From: Mobula hypostoma
Taxonomy: Eukaryota
Reading direction: 5' to 3'
Length of the DNA stretch: 64,000 nt
NCBI RefSeq assembly: GCF_963921235.1
Contig: NC_086097.1
Span: 80,292,001 to 80,356,000 of the forward strand
The first letter of the stretch is position 1. Each line of letters begins with the position of its first letter. Both the position numbers and the translations under genes were made by a program. The notes below the pieces were generated by a model. That model worked only from the letters and a program-made list of their open reading frames with translations, was not told where the DNA came from and searched no databases. Positions 268 through 60,305 of the stretch are shown here, one piece after another.

Positions 268-402
268 GCAACACACATAAAAATTGCTCGGCCCGAATCT
301 TCGACTGTACCTCTTCCTATAGATGCTGCCTGGCCTGCTGCGTTCACCAGCAATTTTTATGTGTGTTGCTTGAAATTCCAGCATCTGTAGATTTCCTCGT
401 GT
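268..402 (+). mobile_element. Miniature Penelope-like (Neptune-type) pLTR insertion with 5' inversion
   Basis: Carries the pLTR motif gatgctgcctggcctgctgcgttcaccagca, shared with 49327-49851. 266-288 is the exact reverse complement of 349-371. Flanked by a near-perfect 14-bp duplication (taacgttgatgaaa 254-267 / taatgttgatgaaa 403-416). Confidence 0.75.
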
Positions 403-4450: not shown

Positions 4451-4479
4451 TCATGCAGTAGCCTCAGTATTCGTAGGTA

Positions 4480-5130: not shown

Positions 5131-5169
5131 ATCTTCTTACTAGGGCTTTCATTCAATTAATGCTTGGGT

Positions 5170-20135: not shown

Positions 20136-21109
20136 TGTCCTGTCCAGTGCCTGTGGAGGGAAGGAGTACTGAATTAGGGTTTCAACCCAAAATGTCAACA
20201 ATTCCTTTCTCCCCAGCAGATCCTGCTTGAGCTGCTGAGTTCCTCCAGAAAATTCTTTGTTTACCGTCGACAGTACTTCTATGTGCTTGGAAGTTTTCTG
20301 TTAACATATTTTTAGTTAGTATTCTTTTTTTTAGTAGCTTTTTAAAATGTAACTTTGATGCTTGTGGCAGACATCAAAGCATGGTTGGGGTATTGCCGTC
20401 TGTCAAAGGGTTCCAGATGGTTTCTATTAACGTGGATTGATTTGACGCCTCCACATCAGCAGTCCATTATATTGTTCATGGTCCTGCTGTCACTCAGGAA
20501 TATCAGGGACAGTGAGTGTGGCTTCCTGGATCTGGAGAGAATGTATTTGTGTGAAAATGGAGGGATGCTATGGTAGATGGGGTGTGCTTCTCTCAGGAAA
20601 ATCAAAACCAAATTATTTCTAACAAGACTACTCAGTGCTCTGTTGTAATCTGACATTCTATATTCTAGATCTACCCACAACCCAACTGTTATTGAATTTC
20701 TTCAGTTTGGAACATCTTGAGAGGGATGAGCAAATCACAATTTAAAGAAAATTATTCTGCTACAGTATATTCAAAATACAGAATGTCAGGGTTGTCCTGT
20801 TAGAAATAATCACATTTCTTTACAACAGGTTCACTTTTCACGATGCTCTTTAAAATCTTTTTCATCATTGATTTTTAGTTTGCCTCTCATGGATTGTGCA
20901 TCTGTTTTCCTTAACATCTGGAGCAGTCAGATATTTACCTATGTTAAATATATTGTATTAATTAAAATTTCTGTTGTGTTTTTGGAAAGTATTTTATCAT
21001 GTCATGTAAGCAATTTACTTTTCATGATTTACATTTAAATAGATAAGTTTTCATTTGAATTCAACAACAACTCAATTACACACAGTTGCCTGCTGAATAA
21101 TCTTTCATT

Positions 21110-28728: not shown

Positions 28729-29058
28729 TAGAAGTCAGAGACCTCAATAAGAGCAATGGCTGTAGTTTGACTTTTAGCATTTGAAACAGCAAGTACATTG
28801 GTATTTTCAATTTTGGTAAATTCAATTAAGAACAGTTGTTTCTCAGACCAGTGAGGCTGAAAATCTGATGGGAGACTGTTTTTGCATGATGTCACTTGAT
28901 AAAATTTTATTCAAGGAAGTAATGCAACGGGGGAGTAAAGTTGCATCAAGAAATGAGAAGGGACGTTTACTGAAGGGGCTTAGGTATGTAAAGTGAGTGT
29001 ATAATTATAAATAAACTCTCTTTTTGGGCTTCCAGCCAGGTACAGGGATCGATTATAG

Positions 29059-29097: not shown

Positions 29098-31907
29098 ATG
29101 ATGCCTGGGCGTCCAGTTGAGTGGTATTTATACCACCATAGTCATCCCTCCTGATTGATAGTCCTCATCCAATCAGGTTTCCACCCTCCCATGTTGTTTA
29201 TAATCGAATTCCAGTTCTTACTTGGAGTGAGAATTTTGTATTTGTTAAAACTTTTTTTCCTCTAGTTTTATTTCAATGACTTTCTTTACCAGGCAGTCCC
29301 AAAAGTCATTGGCATGGCACTGTAGTTTTGTGCCATCGAAGTCGATCCAATTGCCATTGTGAATGCAGTGGTCTGCTACCGCTGATTTCACCGGATAACA
29401 GCTCCTGTGCTCCTTGATGCGAGTTTCCACCGTGAGTCCAGTCTGGCCAACATATGCCACTCTGCATTCACAGGGAATCCTGTAAATGCCAGCGGACCCG
29501 AGTCCCAGGTCATCTTTGATTCGCGTAAGCTGTGACTTGAGCTTTCTTATGGGTTTGTGGATGGAATTAATTCAGTATTTCTTCAGGATCCTGGTGATCC
29601 TTCCAGAAACTGTGGAAATTAGGGAATACAGGCGGTAGTGATGGTTCCTCCTCATTGTTAAGTTACCTGATTTTTCTGCCAGCCCTTTTCAGGGCCGATT
29701 GATTTCCTTCACATTCTGTAGGATCATCATGCATAATTGTCTCGGGGAGACTCTCTGGGCCCAAAATAGTTTTCACATGGTTAATCAAGATAGAAAGAAC
29801 CGCTCTACATTGGGAGGTGTGATGGTGGCTGTTATTGTTGAGTTATAAGTCCGTGTGAGTAGGTTTCCAACAGATGCTATGTCCAAGGCTACCGTCCAGT
29901 TTCTATCGCATTAAGATGTCCAAGAACAGGAAGCAACCATTCTTCTCCATCTCCATCATAAATTGAATGTTTGGATGGATGCTGTTCAGATGGTCATGGA
30001 ACTGCTGGAGTGCTGGTGACCCTGAGGCCACATGATGAAGGTGTCATGGACATATCTGAGGAAGCATTTGGGACATAAGGGTGATAAACTCAGAGCCCTC
30101 TCCTCAAAGTCCTCCATGTAGAAATTAGCAATAGCCAGCAACAAGGGTGACCCCATGGCCACTACTTCTGTTTGTTCATGGTAGTCCCCCTTGTAGAGGA
30201 AGTACGTCGCTGTAAGGGTGTGTTCATGAAGGTACCCTTATCTAACCACGATCACGAGAGGACCAAGCTGTCCTTAATGGGAGCTCTTGTGAACAGGGAC
30301 ACCACATTGAAACTCACCATTATGTCGTCCGGGTTCAGCTAGTTGAAATCAGTCAAATTTGTGACGTGATTCTCACAGCCCCCAACAAAGGGAGACAGCA
30401 TGGTTATCATATGTTTAGCAAGGCAGTAAGTCAGAAAATCTATCGCACTGATGATAGGCCTCAGGGGGGAACCTTCCTTGTGTATCTTAGGGAGCCTGTA
30501 AAGTCTTGGTGGTTCCGGCAGTATGTGTCTGCTGGCAGCCCAGATTTCTTCAGTAAAGCAGAGGTCATCCTGACAATCAAAACTATGGGACCCCGCTGTA
30601 GAACTCTGTAGGCAGGATTGTCCAGAATCTGTTGGACTTTCCTGTGATATTCCTTGGACAACATCAGGACCATTGCATTTCCTTTGTCCGCTGGTAAAAT
30701 CATGATGGCTGGGTTTCACCGTGGTGCCTGGAGGGCCAGTCGCTCTCCTTTTGTAATGTCCAGTTTCGGCAAAATGGCTCTTTTTAGGGCAAGGTAACCT
30801 CCATCCTTACCTCCTCCGTAGTATCCGTTGGGAGTTTTCAGGTTGCTTGCTCTACTCCGCCAGTGTGGTCCCAATAAAGTATGGCCCAGGGGACTGGAGT
30901 GAAGTTTAACCCCTTGGCGAGGACCGATCTAGTCGCTTTGTTGATGCTTCGTCCTGTTTGATTGATGACAATCCTTTCTGGGTCCAATGGTGGGATGGCT
31001 GCACTTCAACTGGATAGTTTGATGTATTTCCTGACATGCTTTGGTCATATTCCTTCATGAAACTAGTTCACCTTGGGCAGCTGTGGACCTGTCAATGTAC
31101 TCCCAATCACCAGGAGACAAGAAGGCTGACAGTCCCAGGTGAAGGGACAATCATCTGTTCGCGTTGATGTCCAGAGCAGATCTAATGTAATGGATACACT
31201 CCCTGATCAACACTCGGCCAGTTCATCATAGATTGTGTTAAGCCTCTGGAGAAATCAGCGTGGAACGCAACCTCACGAACATAGGAATGATGTCCTTGCC
31301 CCAGCATCTCAGAAGGAAGGCTAAAGGACAAAGAATCCTTGCCTTCTCTTTATACAATGATTCAAAACGATGGATATTGCGGTGAACTACCTTCCCATAG
31401 AGGTAAGTGAAAAAGGATCTACTGCTTTCCTGGCGTATATGAACTCTTCTTGGGCTTCCAACCACGTACAAATATTGATTATAACCAAAGATTCGATGAT
31501 AAACTCTGCCATCTTCTTCAGGGATGATGCCTGGGCAAGTCTAGTCCGGTGGCATTTATAACCTTGTGTTCCATCCCTCCTGATTGGTTAGTCCTTATCC
31601 AATCAGGTTTCCGCTCTCCAACATTGTTTACAATCGAATTCCAGTTCTTACTTAGAGCGAGACCTTTGTCTTTGTTAAAACTCTTTTCCTCTAGTTTTAT
31701 TTCAATGTCTTCCTTTACCAGGCAGTCCAAAAAGCCATTGGCATGGTACAATGGTTTTGCGCTGTCAAGGTCAATTCTATGGCCATTGCAAAAGTAGTGT
31801 TCCGCTATCACTGATTTCTCTAGGTAATCCAAATAGATACACCTCTTGTGCTCCTTGATGCGGATTTCCCACCACATGTCCCGTCGGGCCCGATATATGC
31901 TGCTCCA

Positions 31908-32460
31908 TATTGGACATGGTGGAGGATTACAAATATCTGGGGATACGAATTGACAATAAACTGGACTGGTCAAAGAACACTGAGGCTGTCTATAAGAAGG
32001 GTCAGAGCCGTCTCTACTTCCTGAGGAGACTGAGGTCCTTTAACATCTGCCGGACGATGCTGAGGATGTTCTACGAATCTGTGGTGGCCAGTGCTATCAT
32101 GTTTGCTGTTGTGTGCTGGGGCAGCAGGCTGAGGGTAGCAGACACCAAAAGAATCAACAAACTCATTCGTAAGGCCAGTGATGTTGTGGGGATGGAACTG
32201 GACTCTCTGACGGTGGTGTCTGAAAAGAGGATGCTGTCCAAGTTGCATGCCATCTTGGTCAATGTCTCCCATCCACTACATAATGTACTGGGTGGGCACA
32301 GGAGTACATTCAGCCAGAGGCTCATTCCACCGAGCTGCAGCACAGAGCGTCATAGGAAGTCATTCCTGCCTGTAGCCATCAAACTTTACAACTCCTCCCT
32401 TGGAGGGTCAGACACCCTGAGCTGGAGATCAATAAAGTATGACTATGACTATGACTATAT
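31908..32460 (+). mobile_element. Young Rex1/Babar LINE 3' fragment inserted in the Penelope element
   Basis: Uninterrupted frame YKYLGIRIDNKLDWSKN..RLYFLRRLRSF..SFLPVAIKLYN, then aataaa and a (tatgac)n tail. Confidence 0.9.
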
Positions 32461-34054: not shown

Positions 34055-34190
34055 ACAAACACAAGAGGTTCTGCAGATGCTAGAAATCGAAAACAACAAA
34101 CACAAAATGCTAGAGGAGCTCAACAGGCTAGGTAGCATCTATGGAGGGGAATAAGCAGTCAGCTTTTCAGGTCAGGACCCCTCATCAGGC
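34055..34190 (-). mobile_element. Neptune-type pLTR fragment with a degenerate hammerhead
   Basis: ctgcagatgctagaaat..aatgctagaggagctcaacagg; minus strand CTGATGA-ggggtcctgacct-GAAA-agct-gactg. Confidence 0.7.
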
Positions 34191-34567
34191 GTAAAGGGCT
34201 GTAGCAGTGTGACGTAATGCACAGAGAAGCAAATTTACTTATAGTATTATTCAAAGAGCAATCTGACAAATACTTATTGGAAAAAAATTCAGGACTATGG
34301 GATAAGGTTATCAGATGACTCCTTCAAAGGACCAGAACAAGGATAGAAAACCAAATGGCCTACCCGGAATGTATAGGATCAAATAAGTTACAACATTTCA
34401 CAATGTCTTGTTTTGTTTGATTGAGATACCAGGTTGGAGAATAAAATTAGCATCGATGGAGCAGAGTTTTCTTTCAAATGAAGAATGTTATGGTATAATA
34501 TGTCTTCACTACTATATAAACAAGTGTTCCCCATGGAATGCAGAGGCTGAGCTATCAGAGCTCTCAA

Positions 34568-39631: not shown

Positions 39632-40640
39632 AACATCTCCTTGCTGTCGATCAACACTGGTGCACCTTAGGGTTTTGTGCTTAGCCCACTGCTCTACTCT
39701 CTCTATACCCATGACTGTATGTCTAGGCATAGCTCAAATACCATCTATAAATTTGCTGATGATACAACCATTGTTGGTAGAGTCTCAGATGGTGATGAGT
39801 GGGTGTAGAGGAGTGAGATATGCCAACTAGTGAAGTGGTGCTGCAGCAACAACCTGGCACTCAACATCAGTAAGACGAAAGAGCTGATTGTGGACTTCAG
39901 GAAGGGTAAGATGAAGGAATACATACCAATCCTCACAGAGGGATCAGAAGTGGAGAAAGTGTGCAGTTTCAAGTTCCTGGGTGTCAAGATCTCTGAGGAC
40001 CTAACCTGATCACTGATGCGTTTATAAAGAAGGCAAGACAGTGGCTATACTTCATTAGGAGTTTGAAGAGATTTGGCATGTCACCAAATACACTCAAAAA
40101 TTTCTATAGTTGTACTGTGGAGACCTTTCTGACAGGCTGCATCACTGTCTGGTACGGGGTGGGCACTGCACAGGACCGGAAGAAGCTGCAGAGGGTTGTA
40201 AATTTAGTCGGCTCCATCTTGGGTACTAGCCTACAAAGTACCCACGACATCTTCAAGGAGCTGTGTCTCAGAGAGGCAGCGTCCATTATTGAGGACTTCC
40301 AGCATGCAGTGCATGCCCTTTTCTCACTGTTACCATCAGGTAGAAGGTACAGAAGCCTGAAGGCACACACTCAGTGATTCAGGAACAACTTCTTCCCCTC
40401 TGCCATCCAATTCCTAAATGGACATTAAATCCTTGAACACTATCTCAAGTTTTAAATATACCGTTTGTATATTATTTCTGGTTTGCAAGATTTTTAATCT
40501 GTTCAATATACATATACTATAATTTATTTATTTGTTATTATTTTTCTTCTATGTTATGTATTGCATTGAACTGCTGCTACTAAGTTAACAAATTTCACAA
40601 ACATGCTAGTGATAATAAACCTGATTCTGATCCTGATTCT
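39632..40640 (+). mobile_element. Rex1/Babar LINE RT and 3' fragment
   Basis: aaatttgctgatgatacaacc (KFADDTT), KTKELIVDFRK, LLPSGRRYRSLKAHT; aataaacctgattctgat tail. Confidence 0.9.
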
Positions 40641-41222
40641 GGTAGAGTAGACAGGGAGAGGTGGTAGAGAGGAGGTAGAGAGGACAGGGAGAGGAGGTAG
40701 AGAGGACTGGGAGAGGAGGTAGAAAGGACTGGGAGAGGAGGTAGAGTGGACTGGGAGAGATGGTAGAGAGGACAGGGAGTGGAGATAGAGAGGACAGGGA
40801 GAGGAGGTAGAGAGGACGGTGAGGCAGTAGAGAGGACAGGGAGAGGAGGTAGAGAGGACTGGGAGTGGAGGTAGAGAGGACTGGAAGAGGAGGTAGAGTG
40901 GACTGGAAGAGGAGGTAAAGAGGACTGGGAGTGGAGGTAGAGTGGACTGGATGAGGAGGTAGAGAGGACTGGGGGAGGCGGTAGAGTGGACTGGGAGAGG
41001 TGGTAGAGAGGACAGGGAGAGGAGGTAGAGAGGACTGGGGAGGCGGTAGAGTGGACTGGGAGAGGTGGTAGAGAGGACAGGGAGAGGAGGTAGAGAGGAC
41101 TGGGGGAGGAGGTAGAGAGGACTGGGGGAGGCGGTAGAGAGGACAGGGAGAGGAGGTAGAGAGGACTGGGGGAGGCGGTAGAGAGGACAGGGAGAGGAGG
41201 TAGAGAGGACTGGGGGAGGCTT
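40641..41222. repeat. Purine-rich minisatellite, ~22-bp unit gtagagaggactgggagaggag, about 26 copies
   Basis: Directly visible tandem array with variant units. Confidence 0.95.
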
Positions 41223-41249
41223 TGAGTGGACAATGATGAAGGTGATAAA

Positions 41250-41962
41250 AATTACAAGAGGATCTTGATCAGCTGACTAAGGAGGCTAAGGAAGGGTTAA
41301 TGGAGTTTAATTCAGTTAAGTGTGAGGTAGTGCATTTTGGAAAGTAAAATCACGGTAGCACTTTGGTAGGATCCTGGGAGTGTTCTAAAATAGAGGGACC
41401 TTCAAGTTCAAGTGCATGGTTCCCTGAAAGTGATGTGTTAGGTAGACAAGAAGATGAAGGACAGTTTAGACACCTGAGCCTTATTTAATTTGGTTGTCCT
41501 GCTATAGGAAGGATGTTATTAAACTGGAAAGAGTGCAGAAAATATTGACAAGGATTTTGCCAGGACTTGAGGGAGAGGTTGGATAGGCTCGGACTTTATT
41601 TCCTTGAGTGGGGGAGACTTAGGTACGATCCTATAGATGTGTATAAAATGATATGGGGCATAGACAGTGTGAATGCACACAGTTTTTTTCCTGGGAATAG
41701 GAATCAAGAACAAGAGGGCATAGATTTAAGGCGGCCAGGGAAAGATTTATTAGGAGCATGAGGTCAACTTTTTTACACCACGGGTGATATATGTGTGGAA
41801 TGAGCCTCCTGAGGGAGTGGTTGAGGCAGATCCAGTAACAACTGGTAAAGGACAATTGGACAGGTACATGTATTGCAAAGGATATGGGCCAAAGCCTGGA
41901 AAAGCTCGAGCTGGCACCGACCAGTTGGGCTGAAGGACGTGTTCCCATGCTGTATGACTCTG
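41250..41962 (+). mobile_element. Old CR1 3' fragment
   Basis: atggagtttaattcagttaagtgtgaggtagtgcattttgg (MEFNSVKCEVVHF); ends ccatgctgtatgactct. Confidence 0.75.
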
Positions 41963-45525: not shown

Positions 45526-46233
45526 TGTAATTACTTGGTTAACATTTTTAGAATGTTTTGGTTTTGGCTAAAGATATGGAACCGTATTGTTCAACTTAGG
45601 GATGTTGTGTCAGCCATTCAGGATGGTGGGATCAGGAGAAGGCTCTAGAGAGAGCTGGGCAGAGAGAGATTTGTGAAGACTCGTGGTCGTTTGGTGGGAG
45701 ATGTGGAGAAGAGAAGATTGGAAAGATGCCCATAGGATTTGATCTGATGGGAAGAGGCTGTTGCAAGGAGTACTCTGCAAGACAATGGAGTCCAAGGTGG
45801 AAAGTTCTACTGGTGAATGGCGATGGAGAAATCAGCACTGTGAGTAACATTTATACTCAGCTTTTGGAAGAGATGAGCGCCAACAGTTTTATGCACATTT
45901 AGCTGGTCTAACTGTAATAGGCTGCTTTATTTTTTTCTTTATTTTCTTTCCATTCATAACTGCTTGACAAAGCTGAAATTGGTAAATATACTTACTTTAT
46001 AATTTTATGCGGTGTATGATTTGTCATTTCTTGGTGACCAGTAATTCTGTATCAGTAGTATTTACACAGCATTTGCTCAAATCTAGGTTCTGTTAATCAG
46101 AACGTCCCAAATTGTACTGATCTGAGACATATGCTGTTTATGGAAGGTGGCCTTCTCACCGCTAAACCGCGTGGCTGTTGGCAGAGTTTGCTAACGAGCC
46201 AAGTTTGCATACGGGCCCAGTGAGAGCGTTACA
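45526..46233. mobile_element. Probable old solo LTR (708 bp)
   Basis: tgtaa...ttaca termini, imperfect 4-bp TSD cagg / ctgg, and length and motif order similar to the reverse complement of 9631-10345. Confidence 0.55.
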
Positions 46234-46301
46234 CTGGTGAATTTAATGTTATGCGAGCACTTAACATGGATTATGCCACATGTTCATTTCCATTACATTC
46301 A

Positions 46302-46970
46302 TATAGTCAGTGGCCACTTCACTAGGTGCAACTGTACACCTACTCATTAATGCAAATGTCTAATCAGCCAGTCATGTGGCAGCAACTCAATGCATGAAAG
46401 AATGCAGACACGGTCAAGAGGTTCAGTTGTTTTTCAAACCAAGCCATCAGAATGGGGAAGAAATGTGATCTAAGGGACTTTGACGGTGGAATAATTTTTG
46501 GTACCAGAGGGGATGGTTTGAATATGTCACAAACTACTGATCTCCTGGGATTTTCATGCACAACAGTCTCTAAGACAAGGGTCCCCAACCTTTTTAATAC
46601 TTTGGACCCCTACCATTAACCGAGGTGTCTGTGGAACCCAGGTTGGGAAAACCCGATCTAGAGTTTACATAGAATGGTGCAAAAAAACAAATAAAACTCC
46701 TTTGAGAAGCATTTCAGTTGGTTCAGAAGCCTTTGTTAATGCAAAAGGTCAGAGGAGAATGGCCAGACTGGATCAGCTGACCAGAAGATAGCAGTAACCG
46801 AAATAACCGTGTGTTACAACAATAATGTACAGAAGAGCATCTCTGAATGCACAACACCTCGAATCTTTAACTGGCTGTGCTATAGCAGCAGAAGACCATG
46901 AAAATACAGGTGGACATGATGGCCACCTTATTAGGTACAGGAGGTACATAATAAAATGGCCTCTGAGCTT
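46302..46970 (+). mobile_element. Tc1/mariner internally deleted element
   Basis: TIR tcagtggccacttcactaggtgca / gtacataataaaatggcctctga; transposase N-terminus MGKKCDLRDFDGGIIFGTRGDGLNMSQTTDLLGFSCTTVS from about 46452. Confidence 0.8.
46576..46655. mobile_element. ~80-bp hAT-Charlie-like MITE nested in the Tc1
   Basis: caagggtccccaacc...ggttgggaaaacccg, with tcta on both flanks; Tc1 coding sequence resumes afterwards. Confidence 0.65.
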
Positions 46971-49326
46971 ATGTCATCTAGCTTTATTTAAATTCTTATC
47001 AGTGGGAAAATTACATGTAGTCTTTCTGACCTATGCCCCTCAAAATTGAATATACCTGAGTCACATTTCCTTTTAACCTTCCTCTCTTCACATAAAACAG
47101 ACCTCACCTCTCCAGACTTCCTTCATAATTGAAAAGCTGGCAACATCTTGGTGAATCTCTTCCACTCTTTGTCACATCTTTTCTATAGTGTGGTGATCAA
47201 AACAGTTTCCAATACTCTACCTGAGATCTGATCAATGTTTTATAAAGTTGGTGCATAACTCCGTTTTGAGATGCATGCTCTCAGGTGCTAAGGGTTCAAG
47301 CTCTAGAATTCCCTTCCAAAACCCCTCGGTCTCTCTGCTCCTATTTTCACTTTGAAGATCATCCTTAAAGCCTCCCTTACTGGCCAAGCTGGTCAGCTGT
47401 GCTGATATTTCTTCATACACTTCAGTGTCAAAGATTGTTTAATGATAATCCTGCGAAATGCCTTGGAATGTTTGCTTTGCTAGAGTGCTGTACATATGAG
47501 AGGTGATGTCACCGTGGTTTTCTAGTTGCAAAATCACGTGTTCTAAATTGAATTCAACCCCATTGAGCCAAAGCAGGAAATTTACTGTAATATCCAGTGC
47601 ATTAGTCATATCCATCTATAAATCCATTCCTTGCCATTTCTGTATACACCCCTCCACACTACTTAACCTCAGCCTCCTCCCCCACCCCCACCACCAGTTT
47701 CTGGGTATTTCAGTTTTAAGGCACTTTTCAGAAAAAAAGAGTTACTGAGTGTAGCTAACATTGCAGTCTGGGAAAACTTGCTGCTCACATCACTGAAAGC
47801 TTACAAAGTCAAATTTAAAATTGTGCTTTTTCCTGCAGTCCATTTGGAATTGAAAGTCTTGTCTACAACAATAGTGCAAGTGGGAATGACACTGTCAGAG
47901 AGGCTGCCCAGTAACAGGTCAAGTCCAATATTGGGAGTGGACACACAAGAGACAGTAGAGGCTGGAAACCAAAGCTACATTAGGTGTAAGAGGAACTCAA
48001 TAGGTCAGGCAGCATCTGTAGAGGGAAATGGACAGTCACTGTTTTTGATTGAGACCTATTGTATGTAATAGACAGGGCTGTTAAACAGCAGATGGGTGGA
48101 ATGTAGCTAAATGTGGCTCTAACCATAGTCAGAAGATACAGACTTGAAATACTTACTGATGTGTCCTCTGGAGTATAAGTCAAAACCCCACCACCCTATC
48201 CCTTTCGGTCCTTTGAAATATTCTTGGAAAACAGCCTTGCACAATGGTTTTAACAGCAAGTCATAGTCCATGCACTTGCCCCCTCCCGAGCTATATCGTC
48301 AGAACATTTTCAGTGTATTAGATGTACTCCATTTTTGGAGAAACTTAATAATTAGCATTACTTATTTACAGTAAGACCCACAAACAGTAATGCAACAATT
48401 AATCATTTAGAAGGCTACAAATAATGCACCCGTAAAACAGACACTGGGAGTTGAGATGATTAATGCAGGCAGTGTGCAAACTTCAAGCACCCTGCTTTCG
48501 CAATGATTGGAACATTCAGCCGCTGCTAATTGTGCTGCTCAGCAGCTAAACGCTTTACTGGTTAAAATAAGCTGCATCATTTAAAGCTGACTTGCTTCTT
48601 ATAAAGGGAAGGTGTAACGTGGCTGGTGCAGAAGTTGCCAAATTATCTGTAACTTTAAGTATTTGCACATTTGAGAAGGTTGCCATGGTCCTCCATTAGC
48701 TCTGAGTCTAAATCCTGAAACTCCCGACTCAGAAACACAGTGGGAGTACCGTCAACAGAACATCTGTATCAGTCCAGATAGATAGCTCACTGTAACCTCT
48801 TCAGCTGCAATCAGGATGGACAGCAATACCTTAACACGTACTCAAAAATGAATAATTCGAAAGTAAAAATGGAACTAAATAGGGAGTATGGATTTTGCAG
48901 ATTTCAGCACAGAAGAAGTGGACAGTACAAAAGATGTCCTCAACCCAGAGTAAGCCAGAAAACAGCATGAGCAGATAACCCATTGATTCAATGTCAGCAG
49001 TCAAACTCTGTGGACCCAGACACAGAGCTGCAAACACTTCACTGACCCCACTCAGTGACACAGGATATTACAGGTATCTTCAAATCTGCACACGAGAAAC
49101 ATGTCAGATTGACACATCCTATCGCTGATCTCCATCAGCAGTCAGAGAGTCCCTTGTACTTTAGCTTTGCACCCACCCCACAACTGGATGCACTGACATC
49201 ATTTCACCCATGCCAACCATATCCCCTAAAACAATATGTGACTTTTGTACTTCCCATTTTGCTTCGACTGCAGAATCTGTGGAAGGAGATATGTGGTTGT
49301 GGGAAAAACGAACTGGCTTTAAGATT

Positions 49327-49851
49327 CAAACAACAGGAATTCTGCAGATGCTGGAAATTCAAGCAACACACATCAAAGTTGCTGGTGAACGCAGCAGGCC
49401 AAGCAGCATCTGTAGGAAGAGGCGCAGTCGACGTTTCAGGCCAAGACCCTTCATCAGGACTAACTGAAGGAAGAGTGAGTAAGGGATTTGAAAGTTGGAG
49501 GGGGAGGGGAGATCCAAAATGATAGGAGAAGACAGGAGGGGGAGGGATAGAGCCAAGAGCTGGATAGGTGATTGGCAAAAGGGGATATGAGAGGATCATG
49601 GGATAGGAGGTCCGGGAAGAAAGACAAGGGGGGGGGACCCAGAGAATGGGCAAGAGGTATATTCAGAGGGACAGAGGGAGAAAATGGAGAGTGAGAGAAA
49701 GAATGTGTGCATAAAAATGAGTAACAGATGGAGAACGAGGGGGAGGTGGGGCCTTAGCGGAAGTTAGAGAAGTCGATGTTCATGCCATCAGGTTGGAGGC
49801 TACCCAGACGGAATATAAGATGTTGTTCCTCCAACCTGAGTGTGGCTTCAT
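49327..49851 (-). mobile_element. Young Neptune-type Penelope-like 3' fragment
   Basis: DEATLRLEEQHLIFRLGSLQPDGMNIDFSNFR* (GIY-YIG C-terminus) followed by the pLTR; flanked by ctttaagatt at 49317-49326 and 49852-49861. Confidence 0.85.
49425..49462 (-). ncRNA. Minimal type-I hammerhead ribozyme, apparently intact
   Basis: Minus strand reads UAGUC-CUGAUGA-AGG-gucuugg-CCU-GAAA-CG-UC|GACUG. Stem I UAGUC/GACUG, stem II present, palindromic ACGU in place of stem III, GUC cleavage triplet. Confidence 0.8.
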
Positions 49852-50654
49852 CTTTAAGATTTTCTGCTTCTGAGGTTAAGTCTGAAGGAAGGGCTGAAGA
49901 CAATGAGGATGACATTCCTGTACCGAAGCTTCCTTCTTTCATTCCAATTCCTTCTCATTTCATGTTCCCAGGACTTGCAACTTTTGGATAGTGAAAGTGT
50001 GCAGCTCTTGTTTTCTCACATTCACTACATAACCACCTTGCTGTTAGTCATTATTTCAGACTTCTAACTTGATAGTACTGGAAGAGGAAAAAAAAAGCAT
50101 TAATTGATGTGTGTGTTCCTCCAGTATTTTGTGTGTGCCGTTCAAAATTCCTACATCTGCAGGATCTCTTGTGGCTTGTGTATACAGACACTGACTCAGA
50201 TACTGTGCATTATATAGAGGGAGAAACTGCATGTAGAGGGATACTAAAATTAGATTTACCATGAATGGATACAGACTGTGACACCTTTAACTAATGATTA
50301 ACAAATACAATTATTTCTGGTGTAGGAATGAGGGAGTCAATGAGATTAAAGTTTATTGTTAAGGTCAACTTCCCATGCAGTCCTTTCCCTGGTTTGAGGT
50401 TGAAATTGTGGCAGAATTCAATGAAAAGGCTGAATTCTGAAACTATGTGAGATTCATATGGGAAGAATGTTCCTTGCAGACTTTGTGTGGAGATCAATAT
50501 GCTTTTGCGCCCTCTTCTTTCAGCAGGTCATCTTGTTCTACAAGCCATCTGGCCATTCTTCCCCTCATATTACTCTCTGTAGACATTGTCTTTTTAATGC
50601 AGTAATGTTCAGGAACAGAGTGATGCGTGGAGCCAGGGAAAGGTCCTGCATACC

Positions 50655-50860
50655 TCTGGGGCGGCATAACACTCATACAGCACCAGTGACCTAGGTTCCG
50701 GTCTGTAAGGAGCTTGTACATTTTCCCTGTGACCATCTGGGTTTCCTCTGGGTTCCCCAGATTCCTCCCACAGTCCAAAGACATATGGGTTAGTAGGTTA
50801 ATTGGTCACATCAGTGTATTTGGGTGATGCACGCTTGCTGGGCTCAAAGTGCTTGTATGT
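50655..50860 (+). mobile_element. HE1/V-SINE remnant
   Basis: ggagcttgtacattttccctgtgacc..tgggtttcctctggg..ttcctcccacagtccaaagaca resembles the V-SINE central domain (from recall). Confidence 0.7.
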
Positions 50861-50924
50861 CTTAATCATATTTATCCAGCAGCGCATTATACAACCAATC
50901 AGTTCAAATCATATTTATCCAGCA

Positions 50925-51607
50925 TCACATTAGATTATGAGAACACTCAGTCCTCTTTTATTGTCATTTAGAAATGCATACATGCATTGAGAAATGATAC
51001 AATGTTTCTCCGGAGTGATATCACAGAAAACAGGACAAACCAAAGACTAACACTGACAGAACCACATAATTATGACACGTAGTTACAGCAGTGCAAAGCA
51101 ATACCACAATTAGATGAAGAGCAAACCATGGGCACGGTAAAAAAAAGACTCAAAGTCCCTGAGTTGATCGACTCCCGAGTTCCCGATAGCAGGCGGCAAA
51201 AGGGAGAAACTCCCTGCCATAAACCTTCGGGCACCGTCAACTTGCCAATACCTCGGAAGCAGCCGACCACAGCTGACACTGAGTCCATCCATCCAAAAAC
51301 TTCGAGCCTCTGACCAGCCCCTCCAATACAGCCTCCCGAGCGACATCCTCTGCCAAGCGCCTTTGACCTTGCCCCGACTGCTGAAACAAGCAAAGCTGAG
51401 GATTCGGGGTCTTCTGCTCCGGAGAATCCGGTTACCACACAGTAGCAGCGGCAGCGAAGCGGGCATTTCAGAAGTTTTCCAGATGTTTCTCCGTACTCTC
51501 ACGTCTGTCTCCATCAAATCAGGATTGTGCATGGTCCCCTACCTGACAGATTACAGATATCATTCTCCGGACAGGCCGCGCGTGCTGTCGTCGTGCTGCC
51601 ATCTTTT
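50925..51607 (-). mobile_element. CpG-rich non-coding element with an aagatggc 5' start and a LINE-like 3' end
   Basis: Minus strand starts aaaagatggcagcacgacg and ends gacaataaaagaggactgagtgttctcataatct; no recognisable coding domain. Confidence 0.55.
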
Positions 51608-52152
51608 CCTCCATTATACAACCAATTTGATCATCCTCAAAGATCGAGCCATCCTAACACTGAATACTCGGCAGCTCTGCCTTGGAAGAAAGTTCCATTT
51701 CAGGAATGCCGGAGGGTGGAACAACATCCACATCGAACATAGAGCATAAATGAAGCAGAAAACCAAAATAAGAGGACCAATGAAAACCACAGTTGTTTTT
51801 GAAATATAAGTAGTGAGAAAACTTATGTTAAGATTGTTAGAGCCAGAGATTAGACTTGCACTTAGCATTTAACATCTGCCTTGTACACTGTCTAAAAATG
51901 TGGGGGGAATAATCTCATAATGTCTGTATGTAAAGTATTGATTTCTTCATACAACTACAACAGCTAATAACACAAACTAATCAGACCGGGGTAACAATAT
52001 TCCAATATTATAAATTTCTAAATGCTTTCCTTGTATAAAATATGCATTTGGCTAAGTGTATTTTCCAGACATACTGTAGGATGTAACATCGCTATACATT
52101 AATCTTAATAAAACTGCTCATTATAAATTGTAAGTCCCAAAACCCCTCGTGC

Positions 52153-53727
52153 TTTTTTTTTTAATTTTATTTTTATTTGGATAAGGAGTTCACAATTATC
52201 ATGTACTTTTTTCACACATATAACCTTTTCCATTTTTTTATATGTATAAAACTACAATTATTTATACATTCTTAAGTACACATTGAGATGATATAAAAGC
52301 AAAATAAACATTTAAATAGATAATTATGTACTGTGGTAAATCTAACCTATTTGGCTAGGTAATGAAATTAGTTGTTAAGAAAAATGGTAATAATAGTTTC
52401 CATACAACCCTTCTGGACCATTTCCACTGGTCCAAAATGTTGCATACAAGCCTATATACCAACCATTGTAGGTGTTTATATCCCAATTTGTTCGTGCTTG
52501 TTCCTGCCCGCAGACATAATTATCCAATCCCTATGTACTTATTTACTTAATTTTTTCATTTTTTTTTATCCCTTTTCCAAATCTTTCCCTTTACTTGTGT
52601 TAATTCTCTATTTTCCAAAAAAAAACAACAACAAACATTTAGACTAGGGGTGCTTACGTTAGCAATATTACTGTGTTGATGAGAAGAGCAATATAAATCA
52701 TTAGGAGAGTCATCTAAAGTCTGCTCGCATTGGGGTTATATATTCAATCCATTTATTCCAAATTCGATAGAATGTTTCTTTTTGAGTTCTCAGGGAGTAG
52801 GTCAACTTTTCCATTTTAAATATTTCCAAGATAATTTCGTACCAATCTTCTAATGTAGGTGGTATTGGATTTAGCCATTTTCTAGTGATTGATTTCTTAC
52901 TTGCCGCTAAGAGGGCCTGTAGCAACTTTATATCTTCCTTCTGTTCAAGGAACAATACATGCCCCAAATAGAGCGTCTCAAAGTTCAGAGGTATCTGGGA
53001 CCTAAGTACCTTAACTAATGTTCTATGAATACCTTCCCAAAATAGACTTAATTTAGGGCAATCCCAGAAAATATGAAAATGATTTGCCTCCTTAGAGCCG
53101 CACCTTCTCCAACACATCACATTTGTATCTTTATATTTTTCCTGATATGGGGTCTTGAAGTATCTTATAATGTTTTTCCAACAATGTTCTCTCCAAGTCA
53201 AAGAATTAGTCGAGGACCATTGAAAGCTGCAGATTTTCCCCCAAGCCTCCTCTGAAAGTACCAACCCCGCTTCTTTTTCCCACTTCTCTTTAATATACAG
53301 TGTATTTACATTTTTAGCATGGGAGAGTGCATTATATAGGCGAGAAACTGCTTTACTAGGTATTGAACTGCAAGCCGAATTCAGAATCTTGAAAAATTCT
53401 AATTCTACTGTTGATAGGTCTGTATATCTACAACTCTGGTTAACATAGTTTCGTATTTGAAGGTACCTAAAAAAGTCATTATGTTCTAGGCCATGTTTGT
53501 CCTGCAGGATTTGGAAACTTTGTAATACTCTTTTATCTATAAATGAGAGGTAGGTTGTAAGACCTTTCTTTATCCATAGCTCAAATCTTTTATCTCCTCT
53601 GTTGGGAAGGAATTCGGTATCATATGCACACCATCTAAAGAGTTTTAGCATGTTATTAATTCCACATGAATTAACCACCTTCTGCCATACTTTTAATGTA
53701 AGATTTATCCAAGCATTATTAAATTTT
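52153..53727 (-). mobile_element. Young 5'-truncated L1/Tx1 LINE with poly(A) tail and TSD
   Basis: Open 322-aa frame 52710-53678 with CWRRCGSKEANHFHIFWDC zinc knuckle; T-tract at 52153-52162; TSD ccctcgtgctttt at 52144 and 53728-53740. Confidence 0.92.
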
Positions 53728-56700
53728 CCCTCGTGCTTTTAACTACATAATGCAGGTTTTCAACTGAAATATCCTGATGAATTGGATTTGTTCTCCCCAG
53801 AGATACACAGACTGGTCAATGTCAGCAGAAGAGATATTAAGTGGTTTGTCACTGCATAAATTATGTTATTTACCATCCTTGCATTTTTCTCAACAAAACC
53901 TTGTCTAAAAGCCTGCATAGATTGCTTGATTGGTGTCAACAATTTTCAAAGCAGCACTGCTCTAGTTTGCTTCAAATTACCAGTGGAGTATTCCTTCTAA
54001 ATGTCTTGACAGAAAAATACATATGACCAAGGGTGATAGCTTCTTCTCTAACCAAGTAAAAACTTCTGAAGAGCTGATTTATACTTTGTCCAGTTTCAAA
54101 GCATGTCACAAAATTACAAATATCACATTTTAAGGGATTATACATTTTAAATTGAAAAAGACTGTTGATTTAATTCCATGTACTATTTTATATGGGTCTG
54201 CACCATTTTGCTTCATTATAAGTCAAGTCAATGAATAACAGTCTACCTGGGGGATGGTCATAATCAATAACAGTTGTAAATTGGAGATCAATGAGGTGGA
54301 ATTGCTTCATAATTCATTGCTCTCCTAAAATTAATGCTCTCATTTCTCAATTATGTTTTTTTTTCACAGCGGCATTTGAACAAGCTGTTGACATGTTTTA
54401 CCTCTGATATCATTGTTTTACAGTACTAGGATCATACAGAACATAGTTTTATCAGATTAAATCACTGTAGATTGTTCTTACATGTAAAACACCAACTGTT
54501 TCATGGTTTGTATTTTTCTGATCAGTGATAGTCCTTCCAATGGATTTAAGAAGTGAATATTTAGAATGCAAAAAGTCAACTTTTGTACGTATAAAGCACA
54601 TAAATTTGATTTATTTGGTTAACGTTGATAGTGCACTTGTTAAATCAATTGTAGTGACAGCATTATAACAGAGTATAAAATGTAATAGCATCCTAGCAAG
54701 GGAAGCTCTTTAAGTTGTCTTTAATAATTATAGTTGGAAATTCCAACTCCTGAAAGTAAGTGTATCATAAAGTATGAGTGCTTTTTACCTCTGTCAAGTT
54801 TGGTGCTTGGATTCCAATATTAAATCAAGCAAAACATTTTGTAATGCCTTTTAGGTCTTCAGCATGATCAAGGTGCCAAACAAGGAGTTGAAGAGGAAAG
54901 TCTGCAGAACTGGGCCCATTTCCAGTGGTCTCTCCGTACCTGACTAACCCAGAACAAAGGCAAAGGTGGGACCTCTGCACCAAACAGACTTCAATTAGGC
55001 ATGGCAAGAGTGGTTGGAATTTATTCAATTATAAAAGGCCAAGTTAAAGGGCAGGTCTGCTGTCAAAATTGTGAACAGATATAAAGATTTTTAAATGCCT
55101 GACAATGCTTTTGTGTCTCTTAAACAGAGGTCAATATTCAGAACAGATGCCCTCTCCACTACTGGAAATATTTTAAATTTGGTCTTTTCTGATTCTGCAG
55201 AGTTTCACTACACATTCCCAGTGTCTACCTGTGCTTGTTCCAAGTGTCTTTGGAAGTGTAATATAGAATTTGAAGAATGAAGGAGCCTAGAACAGTGTGG
55301 CAAGTAGGAACTGGAGAAGGGTTTGAGAAACATGCACTGCACATATGTGCCTTGGAGTTTAACCCCAAATGGTAACACTTGTGGAGGTATGTAGTAGAAC
55401 TGGTACACATGAAAACAAATATATATGGCCATCTTGTGTGGTTACAGTTTGTGCATGTGTTGACAGATGTGTGGGTGTTAAGTGGTTTGTGTTAGGGCAA
55501 CTTCTGGAGTTATGGAATATAGCAAATATTAATTTCATCAGCAACCAGTCTACAGATCTGAATATGGACTGTAGATTGAGTTTAAAATGTAGCTCAGAAC
55601 AAAGGTGTTCTTAGAGCTGCAGAGTAGGGTTGATTGTAAACCAGGAAATACCCCATTGACCTGAGATCTTTGCATATGCATGAATGTAGCAACAATGGTG
55701 ATTAACACTGATATTGGGTGTGTTGGTGTGAAGATATAGGTGTTTTAAAATTATGTGCAACTCAAAGGAAGTATTATGAATGCATTGTAACGATAGAAAT
55801 TGTCCTGTTCTTACCTTTGTTCTTTAACATATAAAAATGTTATGTAATATTGAGTCAAGGATCCTCTATCCAGAGTGACTCCTAATGTTGTCATTTTGTG
55901 TGCCAAGTAAAGACTTTTATACTACCAGATGCATCTCTCCAGTGGCTTTCATTTACAGCCAAATGAGTCTCCAATTGTGTTAGAATTCCTTGACAAGACC
56001 AACACCTCACTCTGCTAAGTCTGTGTGATAGTTTGTTGTCAATAGATATCCCATGTTAAAATAATTCATCTTCCATTTCTTACACCTGGAGTGGAAGTAA
56101 AATCATCTTCAACCTCAAAGAACTATCAAAGAAGTAATTGTACCAGTAGTAGGAGCTGAGGGGCACTGGGATCTCCTCAGCTCCTAACCAATTGTTACCT
56201 TTCAACCAAACTAAAATGTCACTAAACTAAAAGATCAGTTCATTCATTTGGGCTTTTGAGTTTATTTTAAGCAAATTGACTTTTATGTTCAACAATGTAA
56301 TAGGGACAACAGTTCAAAACTAATTCATTGGTTAAGGAAGACAATAGGATACTGTCAGCATAACGATGATTCCTAAGTCTCACCAATGTCCACTAATAAA
56401 TAGCAATTAGTGTGCAGAACTTATGTTTGTAAATTTGGAGTTATTAGCATCTGGTGCCATGAGGCATAAATTTAGAGTAGATGTAGGTGGGACGTTGTTT
56501 TAAAAATCAGTTTTTCAGCGAGGTTTTTTAGTCTCTTTTCTGTTGTTAGGGAACAAGCAAGAGGATGAGAAAGATGAGACAGAAAAGCTTCATCATCTCA
56601 CTGAGTGGTGGAGCAGGTTTAAGAGTCCATGCGCCTTACTTCTGCTCCTTGTCATACATTCATATTCCGCTGCAAGACTCGGTCTCAGTTTGATTGAACA

Positions 56701-57744: not shown

Positions 57745-58770
57745 GAACAGAAAATGGCTGGAGGAACCCAGCAGGCCAGGCAGCATCGATGGAAAAAGTA
57801 CAGGCGATGTTTTGGGCTGAAACCCTTCGACAGGACTGGAGGAAAAAAATGCTGAGAAGTAGATTTAAAAGGTATGGGGAGGGGTGAGAAAAACGCCAGA
57901 TGATGAAAGGGGAGGGATGAAGCAAAGAGATGGAAGTCGATTAGTGAAAGAGACAGAAGGCCATGGAAGAAAGAAAAAGGGGGGAGCACCAGAGGGAGGC
58001 GATCGGTGAGCAAGGAGATAAGGTGAGAGACGGAAAAGGGAATGGAAAATAGTGAAGCAGGGTGGGGGGGGGCATTACCAAAGTTTGAGAACTCAATGTT
58101 TATGCCATCAGGTTGGAGGCTATCCAAATGGAATATAAGGTGTCGTTCCTCCAACCTGAGTGTGGCTGCATCACGAGAGTGGAGGAGGCCATGGATGGAC
58201 ATACCGGAATGGGAATGGGATGTGGAATTAAAATGGGTGGCCATTGGGAGATCCTGCTTGTTCTGGTGGACAGAGCGTAGATGCTCAGTGAAGCAGTCTC
58301 ACAAACTATGTTGGGTCTCACCGATACACAGGAGGCCACACTGGGAGTACCGAACACAGTAAATGACACCAACACAGGTGAAGTTTCGCCTCACCTGGAA
58401 GGACTGTTTGGGGCCCTGAATGGTAGTGAGGGAGGTGGTGTAGGCGCAGGTGTAGCACTTGTTCCGCTTGCAAGGGTAAGTTCCAGGAGGGAGATCAGTG
58501 GGGAGGAACAAATGGACAAGGGAGTCACATAAGGAATGATCCCTTTGGAAAGCAGAAATTGGGGGGAGGGAAAGATGTGCTTGGTGGTGGGATCCCGCTG
58601 GAGGTTGTGAGTCTGTCAAATTCTTTTTTCTCCAGTCCTGCCGAAGGATTTCAGCCCAAAATATCGACAGTACTTTTTTCCCTAGATGCTGCTTGGCCTG
58701 CTGAGTTCTTCCAGCATTTTGTGCGTGTGTTGCTTGGATTTCCAGCACCTGCAGATGTTCTCTTGTCCTT
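57745..58770 (-). mobile_element. Neptune-type Penelope-like GIY-YIG fragment with an inverted pLTR (58620-58770, +)
   Basis: GTYPCKRNKCYTC..VIYCVRYSQCGLLCIGET..HFNSTSHS..LRLEERHLIFHLDSLQPDGIN. 57745-57850 is inversely repeated at 58620-58730. Confidence 0.88.
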
Positions 58771-60305
58771 GGCTGCATAGAGAAGTTCTTAAAAGAACAT
58801 CTGAGCAACTCACACAAAATGCTGGAGGAATTCAGCAGGTCAAACAGTATCTATGGAGCAGATAAGTTAGCTGCCTGATCAGTCTGGCCTTAATTCTGAT
58901 GCGCGTGCATTCAATGGCACCTGCACTTGTAGTGGGAAACCAACCAGTCCCGTGCTACTTTTCTTCATCCCTTTCAGCAAGATGGAGTGGCACGACAGAA
59001 GCCCACACATCTTGTAGATTTTGTGGAGTAGTTTGGAAAAAGCCCCTTGCTTCTCTCTACTTATTTACTCTGATTCCTTCCACCTTGTCACTACCAACTT
59101 TCCCTTCAACCAGTCCTTTGAACACCCTGGTCAACTCTGTCATCGGGTGCTGTCACATACTTTTGACATATGCCTGCTCCCACAGTAGTGTGCAGGAAAC
59201 CTGACTCCTGACAGGATTGCTTGATTTATAAATTTATTAGGAAGAAAAAGAAATCAATTATTCAAGGAAATAAGGTTTGCCTATCCCTCTATTGGTGCTT
59301 TCTGCCCATGATATTCTTTTCCCTGTGCCTTTTCTTATCATTTTGCAGCTCTTTGAAGCCTCAGATATTTGGATGAGCATGCTGTTTCATTGCCTACCCT
59401 GTTGATAACTGAATGGGAATGTTTGGCAGAGTATGTAGGCCAGGGACTGGGGTCATTTGTCGGCTGAACCGGGTTACAATATGGCACATTTTTTTTTACC
59501 AAAGAACATGCTTAGGTATTCAGTTAGGCCTTTAGTGGCCGCTTTCACTGTCAGTTTGTTTCCATTTACAGAATTTTTTTTTACAAAACGGTGAAACAAA
59601 GCTGTGCCATCATGGGACATGAACTTTGTTATACAGATTATTAAATTGTCAGCGCAGTATCATAACCACCACACAACCGTACTTGGCTGCTAAGCTAATA
59701 AGCAAACATATCAACTTTATTTCCTGCTCTTGTATTGAGTAATTTCGCTCCTGTGAGAGGAAAGCAAATAACATGTTACTATTTAAGGAGATTTACTAGT
59801 TGGTGTCCTGTGATGTTGCACATAGGGAGTCAGCAGCAAATGTAGTAGAGATCAGAGAATCAGAAGGACCAGGGAAAGAAAATTAAAAAAAGAAATAGTT
59901 AAGAACTCCCAAATGTAGCTTCATAAGTTGTTAAAAAATCTATTTGGATATTAAAATACTTAAGAAAATTTTGGGTCATGAGAGCTCTGGATTTTTGGGC
60001 TGCAGCTCCATGTGCCAAATACCACGTGGGCCATTTGAAGTCTCTTGTCCTCAGGGTTGATCCATGGAAAATATCCTACTTTTGGAGATAGGAGAGGGAG
60101 AGGTGGAAAACAGACACTACTAGAATGAAGTAAAGGGAGCAGGGGATTGTAACATGTGAATGCATAGGAATGGGTACAGTGACAAAGATGGGGAGAAGCT
60201 TAGTGGAAGGGTTGACAGCAAAGGGGTTCAGGTCACTTCGAAAATCCCACTAGAAATGTCACTTGTTCTTTGTCAATCTCAAAAGATGTGGAAATGAGAA
60301 AAACA

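What the first reader, a model, noticed from the sequence alone, without database searches (positions are those of the whole stretch)
49425..49462. Apparently intact minimal hammerhead ribozyme in a widespread Penelope pLTR family
Seen: all core nucleotides (CUGAUGA, GAAA, UC), a 5-bp stem I, stem II, and a self-complementary ACGU replacing stem III. Predicted cleavage is between 49430 and 49429 on the minus strand. Decayed homologues lie at about 289-307, 20170-20200, 34156-34189, 57801-57838 and 58633-58670. Established: PLEs carry minimal type-I hammerheads thought to cleave as dimers. Inference: this genome holds very many such motifs, and an intact copy could cut a host pre-mRNA transcribed on the minus strand.
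Basis: partly seen in the sequence, partly recalled or inferred. Interest (0 to 1): 0.75.

Follow-up and report, generated by a model that had tools for sequence, protein, structure and literature searches.

The report
Penelope-element hammerhead, young solo copy
The 38-base motif has every catalytic letter of a minimal hammerhead ribozyme, but it sits in a short, broken-off copy of a very abundant Penelope-like jumping gene, a combination described in 2014, and this lone copy is predicted to misfold and likely does not cut RNA.

Summary
49462-49425 (-) carries CUGAUGA, an extra A, a 4-bp helix II, GAAA-C-GU-C and a 5-bp helix I, with the cut site at 49430|49429; there were no chance hits in 100 shuffles. 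All five named homologues exist and each has lost core letters. The motif lies in a 525-bp 5'-truncated Penelope-like element (49851-49327; likely Neptune clade) with a 10-bp target-site duplication. A related organism has the empty site, so the insertion is likely young and is not a conserved host ribozyme. The family is huge (167,306 contigs of one DNA run lie on it), and divergent relatives share the hammerhead but not its flanks. Cutting of host pre-mRNA is unsupported: no host gene was found, no intact partner lies in the window, upstream bases are predicted to sequester the core, and the element ends 103 nt past the cut site, so its template was likely uncut. Published minimal hammerheads were inactive as monomers or needed element protein. 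This is a known class; the scan has noted it many times elsewhere in this genome.

The parts
49425..49462 (-). Minimal type-I hammerhead motif, all core positions present
49458..49462 (-). Helix I, 5' strand (outer pair U.G; C-G in 2 of 5 aligned in-window copies)
49450..49457 (-). CUGAUGA core (C3-A9) plus the extra unpaired A before helix II
   Evidence: feature listed by Cervera 2014
49438..49449 (-). Helix II, 4 bp (G.U, G-C, G-C, U.G) with 4-nt loop; bulged-A register predicted at P 0.87-0.96 versus 0.03 for the A-U register in the 38-mer
49430..49437 (-). GAAA core, ACGU palindrome in place of helix III, GUC triplet; predicted cut after 49430
49425..49429 (-). Helix I, 3' strand
49327..49851 (-). 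5'-truncated Penelope-like element, 525 bp (endonuclease end, 3' spacer, hammerhead, tail)
49754..49852 (-). Last 32 codons and stop of the GIY-YIG endonuclease ORF; 30 of 32 aa identical to P0004
49463..49753 (-). Pyrimidine-rich spacer (79% pyrimidine over 49463-49756) between stop codon and hammerhead
49464..49475 (-). Segment predicted to pair with the core (49457-49447) and block the hammerhead fold; it ends in an acceptor-like CAG (49466-49464)
49327..49424 (-). 3' tail; the family's 3' end maps to 49327, 103 nt past the predicted cut
   Evidence: table 7
49317..49326 (.). Target-site duplication, copy at the element's 3' end (10 bp, exact)
   Evidence: single copy in organism B
49852..49861 (.). 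Target-site duplication, copy at the 5' end; family contigs match through 49856 (5-nt microhomology)
57754..58600 (-). Older, longer copy with CX4CxxC linker and GIY-YIG remnant; its hammerhead (57838-57801) has lost A6 and G12; upper boundary approximate
58633..58765 (+). Inverted terminal-repeat piece at the 5' side of the older copy; hammerhead has lost A6 and G12
34058..34198 (-). Decayed homologue; U16.1 changed and helix I broken
20164..20260 (+). Decayed homologue; G8, A9 and G12 changed
286..402 (+). Close homologue that begins in helix II and lacks the 5' core
47953..48059 (-).

Best explanation
The motif is the minimal hammerhead of a 525-bp, 5'-truncated Penelope-like retroelement copy that is absent from the same site in a related organism, and as a lone copy it is likely inert. 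Shown: the motif, the element boundaries, the 10-bp duplication, the empty site in organism B, the endonuclease end, the family's fixed 3' end 103 nt past the cut site, and the sharing of just this motif by divergent relatives. Inferred: an active Neptune-type element was transcribed, reverse transcription began in the tail downstream of an uncut hammerhead, primed at an AT-rich nick, and stopped after about 525 nt with a 5-nt microhomology. Inferred from published work: the hammerhead is kept by selection on active master elements, where two copies pair their ACGU palindromes into a shared helix III, or element protein helps folding, and GUC is cut slowly. Predicted: at this locus there is no partner, and the upstream pyrimidine tract pairs with the core, so any host RNA running through would mostly stay uncut.
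For: Exact 10-bp duplication. Organism B contig 25 runs from 49852 straight into 49316 with 7 differences in 426 flank bases, while organism A contigs 1 and 8 enter the element from both flanks with 0 differences (table 8). The ORF end is 30 of 32 aa identical to P0004, which has a CX4CxxC linker and a GIY-YIG match at E 4.6e-4, just under Pfam's cut-off. 167,306 (X1) and 95,284 (X5) contigs were laid on the stretch; loose ends at 49425 are listed in 4 of 4 runs and at 49461 in 3 of 4. The motif fits the published consensus. A Schistosoma monomer showed no cleavage and dimers low cleavage. The anole Poseidon hammerhead needed protein, was dispensable for insertion, uncut RNA was the main template, and no RNA-seq reads began or ended at its cut site; there reverse transcription starts 85-92 nt past the cut, like the 103 nt here. 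The open-core fold has predicted probability 0.011 in the 38-mer and about 1e-5 to 1e-7 in native context; the active dimer is -11.5 kcal/mol against -18.4 for two monomers and -28.5 for an inactive duplex.
Against: No cleavage assay was run. ViennaRNA ignores tertiary contacts, co-transcriptional folding and proteins. The core is complete; the only two variant rows shown inside the motif (49443, 49453) are at loop II and N7 (40 rows shown, 50 hidden). Family sequence is abundant in two runs guessed to be RNA (12,052 and 8,087 contigs), so trans partners may exist in cells. The five-copy alignment shows no covariation above shuffles. Neptune versus Nematis was not resolved by a tree. The empty site could in principle be a precise deletion or an old polymorphism; this copy differs from the majority letter at 14 or more of 525 positions (rows shown).
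Confidence: 0.85

Rival explanations
1. The copy lies on the sense strand of a host intron or UTR and cuts the host RNA, helped by a trans partner from the very large family or by element protein.
For: Complete core; family sequence abundant in runs guessed to be RNA; protein-assisted cleavage shown for the anole element; intronic type-I hammerheads with proposed host roles exist in amniotes; tandem hammerhead retrozymes are depleted in Xenopus genes.
Against: No host exon identified (weak negative). Core predicted sequestered. No intact partner among 7 pieces. Absent in organism B, so no conserved role. Family pieces in the window lie 4 on + and 5 on -, too few to test bias. No cut-site reads were seen for the anole element.
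Confidence: 0.06
2. The hammerhead is switchable: the upstream pyrimidine tract is a selected off-switch that also serves as a 3' splice site, so splicing, an internal start or protein binding frees the core only in master-element RNA.
For: 49475-49464 pairs with the core at P 0.94-0.99 in 81-274-nt fragments. Core-upstream pairing is 0.86; 3 of 400 upstream shuffles and 0 of 22 spacer windows reach it. An acceptor-like CAG lies just before helix I. In D. virilis Penelope the intron ends at helix I.
Against: Post-hoc test on one copy. The free-energy penalty (7.7 kcal/mol) is reached by 57 of 400 shuffles and 1 of 22 control windows. Pairing falls to P 0.3-0.8 in the whole element. The spacer is 79% pyrimidine, and a U-rich upstream flank is already in the published consensus. 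No RNA-only joint or loose end at this acceptor appears among the rows shown (15 joints shown, 184 hidden).
Confidence: 0.1
3. The piece is a non-autonomous retrozyme-like unit that spreads through self-cleaved or circular RNA, not a truncated autonomous element.
For: Non-LTR retrozymes are proposed to derive from Penelope terminal repeats and occur in the one chondrichthyan sampled; relatives with a short spacer between stop codon and hammerhead exist (joints).
Against: Single copy with no tandem unit; it starts inside the endonuclease ORF, and family contigs continue 5' of it (loose ends behind 49856 in 4 of 4 runs); neither end lies at the cut site.
Confidence: 0.04
4. The motif is a chance hairpin or is conserved for a non-catalytic reason (protein-binding or DNA signal).
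For: No Rfam match; folding z-score of the 38-mer only -1.19; no covariation in five copies; Cervera 2014 does not exclude other functions.
Against: 0 chance hits; exact fit to the published consensus; position in the terminal repeat as in other Penelope-like elements; conservation breaks at the ends of helix I.
Confidence: 0.03

Closest known systems
Minimal hammerheads (min-HHR) in pLTRs of metazoan Penelope-like elements (Cervera and De la Pena 2014, PMC4209133)
   Same: Type-I layout, CUGANGA plus one extra base, GAAA, C-GU-H with no helix III, palindromic 15.1-16.1, short helix I, U-rich upstream flank, mostly solo truncated copies, opposite-strand pairs a few hundred bases apart (as at 57.8 and 58.6 kb).
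   Different: Helix II is short (4 bp) and closes with G.U (also seen in some published rows, e.g. Xenopus tropicalis 1 and Malawi cichlids). No cartilaginous fish appears in the part of the alignment I read. Copy number looks far above the 4,000-9,000 reported for coelacanth and Xenopus.
Poseidon element PAc of Anolis carolinensis (Frangieh et al. 2024, PMC11167929)
   Same: Hammerhead in the pLTR, insertions ending about 100 nt past the cut site, AT-rich targets.
   Different: PAc is Penelope/Poseidon clade; this family has the Cys linker of Neptune/Nematis. Protein-assisted cleavage was shown there and is untested here. The ORF start of this family was not located.
Neptune-clade Penelope-like elements (definition as in Craig et al. 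2021, PMC8557442)
   Same: C-terminal GIY-YIG preceded by a CX2-5CxxC linker; inverted 5' repeat piece in the 57.7-58.8 kb copy; hammerhead in the pLTR.
   Different: No reverse-transcriptase tree was built, so Nematis is excluded only by its reported absence from the vertebrates sampled in the 2026 preprint.
Metazoan non-LTR retrozymes (Cervera and de la Pena 2020, PMC7229834; bioRxiv 10.64898/2026.07.22.740005)
   Same: Type-I hammerheads that work better as dimers; up to 120,000 copies in axolotl, a precedent for 1e5 hammerheads in one vertebrate genome.
   Different: Retrozymes are tandem, non-coding units; this is a solo fragment of a coding element with a target-site duplication.
Conserved intronic hammerheads of amniotes (RECK, CTCL, DTNB; as reviewed in PMC6155905)
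   Same: Type-I hammerhead of likely retroelement origin.
   Different: Those are conserved across species; this one is minimal, absent in a close relative, and not shown to lie in a gene.

Membership tests
min-HHR of Penelope-like elements | Core boxes CUGANGA and GAAA, U16.1 and H17 | tested here: met
min-HHR of Penelope-like elements | [quoted passage not shown] | tested here: met
   A at 49450; register favoured in the 38-mer; helix II 95% paired in 5 copies
min-HHR of Penelope-like elements | No helix III; palindromic 15.1-16.1 | tested here: met
   ACGU at 49434-49431
min-HHR of Penelope-like elements | G10.1-C11.1 closing pair | tested here: inconclusive
   G.U here; G-C in 3 and G.U in 2 of 5 in-window copies; G.U occurs in published rows; family share at 49438 not among the rows shown
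min-HHR of Penelope-like elements | Helices I and II supported by compensatory changes | tested here: inconclusive
   0 double-sided changes and 3 pairs with single-sided changes in 5 mostly decayed copies; not above shuffles
min-HHR of Penelope-like elements | Located in the pLTR downstream of the RT-EN ORF | tested here: met
   292 nt after the stop codon of the endonuclease end
min-HHR of Penelope-like elements | Self-cleavage as a dimer or with protein help | not testable with these tools
   needs an in vitro assay; folding model disfavours it
EN+ Penelope-like element, Neptune clade | C-terminal GIY-YIG endonuclease | tested here: met
   30 of 32 aa identical to P0004; P0004 matches PF01541 at E 4.6e-4, 20.9 bits against a cut-off of 22.6; window fragments alone gave no Pfam match
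EN+ Penelope-like element, Neptune clade | CX2-5CxxC linker before the endonuclease | tested here: met
   present in the 58.5-kb copy and in P0003/P0004; lost by truncation in the 49-kb copy
EN+ Penelope-like element, Neptune clade | Placement by reverse-transcriptase phylogeny | not tested
   no reference set fetched
Non-LTR retrozyme | Tandem non-coding repeats with a hammerhead in each unit | tested here: not met
   solo copy with ORF remnant and target-site duplication
Domesticated host hammerhead (RECK type) | Conserved at the orthologous site across species | tested here: not met
   empty site in organism B

The most novel reading that the evidence does not exclude
A ray-like genome carries on the order of 1e5 Neptune-type hammerhead motifs. 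Core-intact copies on the sense strand of host introns are held off by an upstream pyrimidine tract that pairs with the catalytic core, and they cut host pre-mRNA only when element protein, splicing at the adjacent acceptor or a trans partner frees them. That would be a genome-wide, element-controlled RNA cutting system, visible as selection against intact sense-strand copies.
Probability: 0.06. Interest if true: 0.6.

Novelty: new member of a known kind. Interest (0 to 1): 0.15.

Why it matters
The locus itself is ordinary. The family is of some use: what Penelope hammerheads do is still open (dispensable for insertion in vitro; absent from successful Naiads). A genome with a very large number of copies, young insertions and a related species with empty sites would allow a well-powered test of whether intact motifs are selected against on the sense strand of genes. 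If they were, it would be indirect evidence that these minimal ribozymes cut RNA in living cells.

Tried and rejected
No whole genome is held for the window, so no genome-wide count or strand-bias test was possible. Rfam gave one irrelevant match at E 2 and no hammerhead. Host gene: three exon scans with rough splice and codon scores, a Pfam scan of 18 hand-picked frames, mostly from the 79 long frames (no match at curated cut-off), and protein searches with 2 candidate exons (28637-28762; 17416-17535) found nothing; other candidates were not searched, so a gene is not excluded. No RNA holder was listed for 46000-52000, and the two runs guessed to be RNA left the unique flanks uncovered; neither is evidence on expression. 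Searches for further family copies were empty in metagenome contigs and viral contigs. The 25 genome-contig hits are not family members: 24 of 25 had no match to the element and 1 matched only the motif, and the two genomes searched had no match. The covariation count on 5 copies was not above shuffles. My first idea, that U11.1 is private CpG decay that disables this copy, is not established: G.U occurs in 2 of 5 in-window copies and in published families, and the family share at 49438 was not shown. Summed depth over the motif is about 3.1e5 (X1) and 2.7e5 (X5) times the flank, but the tool states this is not a copy number, so I use it only as an order of magnitude. Lunse et al. 2017 could not be read; I saw only its title and a review's summary.

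Full report
Observation. The minus strand at 49462-49425 reads as a minimal type-I hammerhead: a 5-bp helix I with an outer U.G pair, CUGAUGA, one unpaired A (49450), a 4-bp helix II (G.U, G-C, G-C, U.G), GAAA, then C-G-U-C, so that ACGU replaces helix III and the cut falls between 49430 and 49429. A pattern search found 1 match in the window and none in 100 shuffles; my structural descriptor found 1 hit and none in 300 Markov replicates. Rfam reported no hammerhead. Seven reach the hammerhead region and only the 49-kb copy keeps the whole core; four of the other six have lost G12.

The element. The motif lies in a 525-bp insertion, 49851-49327, flanked by an exact 10-bp duplication. Its 5' end encodes 32 residues, 30 identical to the end of the endonuclease of P0004, a protein named from Mobula hypostoma. 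P0004 has a CX4CxxC linker and a GIY-YIG match just below Pfam's cut-off. The older copy at 57.7-58.6 kb retains that linker and has an inverted repeat piece at its 5' side, an arrangement described as typical. By the linker this is Neptune or Nematis; only Neptune and Poseidon were found in the vertebrates of a 2026 preprint. No tree was built. The protein hits point to a ray-like host.

Age and abundance. Four of the 24 listed runs were laid on 49120-50080 at 85% likeness. In organism B one contig joins 49852 to 49316, with 7 differences in 426 flank bases: the empty site with one copy of the duplication. In organism A two contigs enter the element from both flanks with no difference. The insertion is therefore likely young and lineage-specific; precise deletion or an old polymorphism is not excluded. 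X1 may be the window's own sample and is not independent. 167,306 contigs of X1 and 95,284 of X5 were laid. Summed depth over the motif is about 3e5 times the flank; the tool warns that this is not a copy number, so I take only an order of 1e4-1e5 or more. Family contigs end at 49327 and continue 5' beyond 49856, so this copy is 5'-truncated with a 5-nt microhomology.

Conservation. Among the loose ends listed (24 shown, 1,931 hidden), contigs stop matching at 49425 in 4 of 4 runs (1,177, 1,070, 195 and 125 contigs) and at 49461 in 3 of 4 (851, 811, 81): divergent relatives share the hammerhead and not its flanks. Other joints show relatives with a much shorter spacer before the same motif. 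Of 40 variant rows shown (50 hidden), two fall inside the motif, at loop II (49443) and N7 (49453), both outside the conserved core. A pair count on five in-window copies gave helix II 95% and helix I 72% paired, with no double-sided change and no excess over shuffles; it adds nothing either way. Pair 10.1-11.1 is G.U here, G-C in 3 of 5 copies; whether U is a subfamily trait or decay is unresolved.

Would it cut? The family's 3' end lies 103 nt past the cut site, so the RNAs that were copied into the genome likely spanned the site uncut (inference). This matches the anole element, where the cut is at +26, reverse transcription starts at +111 to +118, uncut RNA is the main template, cleavage needs the element protein, and no RNA-seq reads ended at the site. 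A Schistosoma minimal motif did not cleave as a monomer and cleaved weakly as a dimer or trimer. In folding models the open-core structure has probability 0.011 in the bare 38-mer and 7e-6 to 6e-8 with native flanks, because 49475-49464 pairs with 49457-49447; the active dimer (-11.5 kcal/mol) is less stable than two monomers (-18.4) or an inactive duplex (-28.5). The upstream pairing (0.86) is reached by 3 of 400 shuffles and 0 of 22 spacer windows, but its energy penalty is reached by 57 of 400 and 1 of 22, so composition explains much of it. These models omit tertiary contacts and proteins.

Host gene. I found no host exon. These are weak negatives, and the RNA data are uninformative for the locus. 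The premise of a minus-strand pre-mRNA is neither shown nor excluded. With the empty site in a close relative, a conserved host role is excluded; incidental cutting is possible but unlikely.

Comparison and novelty. The motif fits the consensus of Cervera and De la Pena 2014. Paper searches on hammerhead with Penelope, Penelope with elasmobranch, hammerhead ribozyme with shark and Penelope with ray names listed no title or abstract describing this family in rays; I read only the listings for most hits. 'Shark', 'Callorhinchus', 'skate' and 'Leucoraja' had no hits in the searched supplements of the 2014 paper (file 1 not searched). The 2026 preprint reports hammerhead retrozymes in one chondrichthyan, and axolotl has up to 120,000 retrozyme copies. 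What I saw: PMC4209133 main text parts 1-2 of 4 and supplement file 2 part 2 of 3; the preprint part 1 of 5 plus passages; passages of PMC11167929, PMC8557442, PMC6765202, PMC6155905 and PMC7229834; Lunse et al. 2017 only by title and a review's summary. Hammerhead numbering is from established knowledge. The scan's earlier notes list 92 entries fitting these words in this genome with the same reading; they are unchecked AI notes and not independent support.

Verdict. A real, correctly read motif; a new member of a known kind; likely inert at this locus. Interest 0.15.

Noticed in passing
window 49475-49464 (-): A pyrimidine tract ending in CAG directly precedes helix I: it is predicted to pair with the catalytic core and also looks like a 3' splice site, recalling the intron end at helix I in D. 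virilis Penelope. No RNA-only joint there among the rows shown.
   Followed up: partly
window 57754-58856: Older Neptune-type copy (-) with an inverted terminal-repeat piece (58633-58765, +) and a further weak piece near 58856-58798 (-); both hammerheads have lost G12.
   Followed up: partly
window 49120-50080, runs X17 and X14: In the two runs guessed to be RNA, the family-majority letter is more frequent than in same-organism DNA runs at 5 of 8 hand-picked positions (e.g. 49443: 0.90 versus 0.67-0.68), a weak hint that less-decayed copies are over-represented.
   Followed up: no
window 49456-49461 joined to 49759-49779 (joints): Relatives exist in which only about 25 bases separate the endonuclease end from the same hammerhead, seen in both DNA and RNA-guess runs.
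   Followed up: no
L001, L003, L004, L007, L009-L011, L014, L016, L017, L019-L022, positions about 395-445: One assembly labelled Gammaproteobacteria holds 14 loci with a repeated type-I hammerhead-like motif that has a 6-bp helix I and a full 4-bp helix III; unrelated to the window element. It may be a eukaryotic repeat binned into the assembly.
   Followed up: no
L006, L012, L013, positions about 395-435: Single minimal hammerhead-like motifs with matching helix I arms in other assemblies of the prokaryote collection.
   Followed up: no
window 29245-32039 (-): Remnants that look like a second Penelope-like family of Penelope/Poseidon type (GIY-YIG-like and RT-like frames; assignment from recall), with no intact hammerhead found by the descriptor.
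   Followed up: no
window 28722-28640 (-) and about 17500-17413 (-): Exon-like open stretches with acceptor-like starts; protein searches found no relatives.
   Followed up: yes
window 25840-26616 (-): Frames resembling a hAT/SPIN-type DNA transposase (assignment from recall), in a region with raised CpG content.
   Followed up: no
window 52710-53738 (-) and 40554-41276: A 342-aa frame resembling the end of an L1-type ORF2, and a purine/pyrimidine-skewed tandem repeat near 40.6-41.2 kb (assignments from recall).
   Followed up: no
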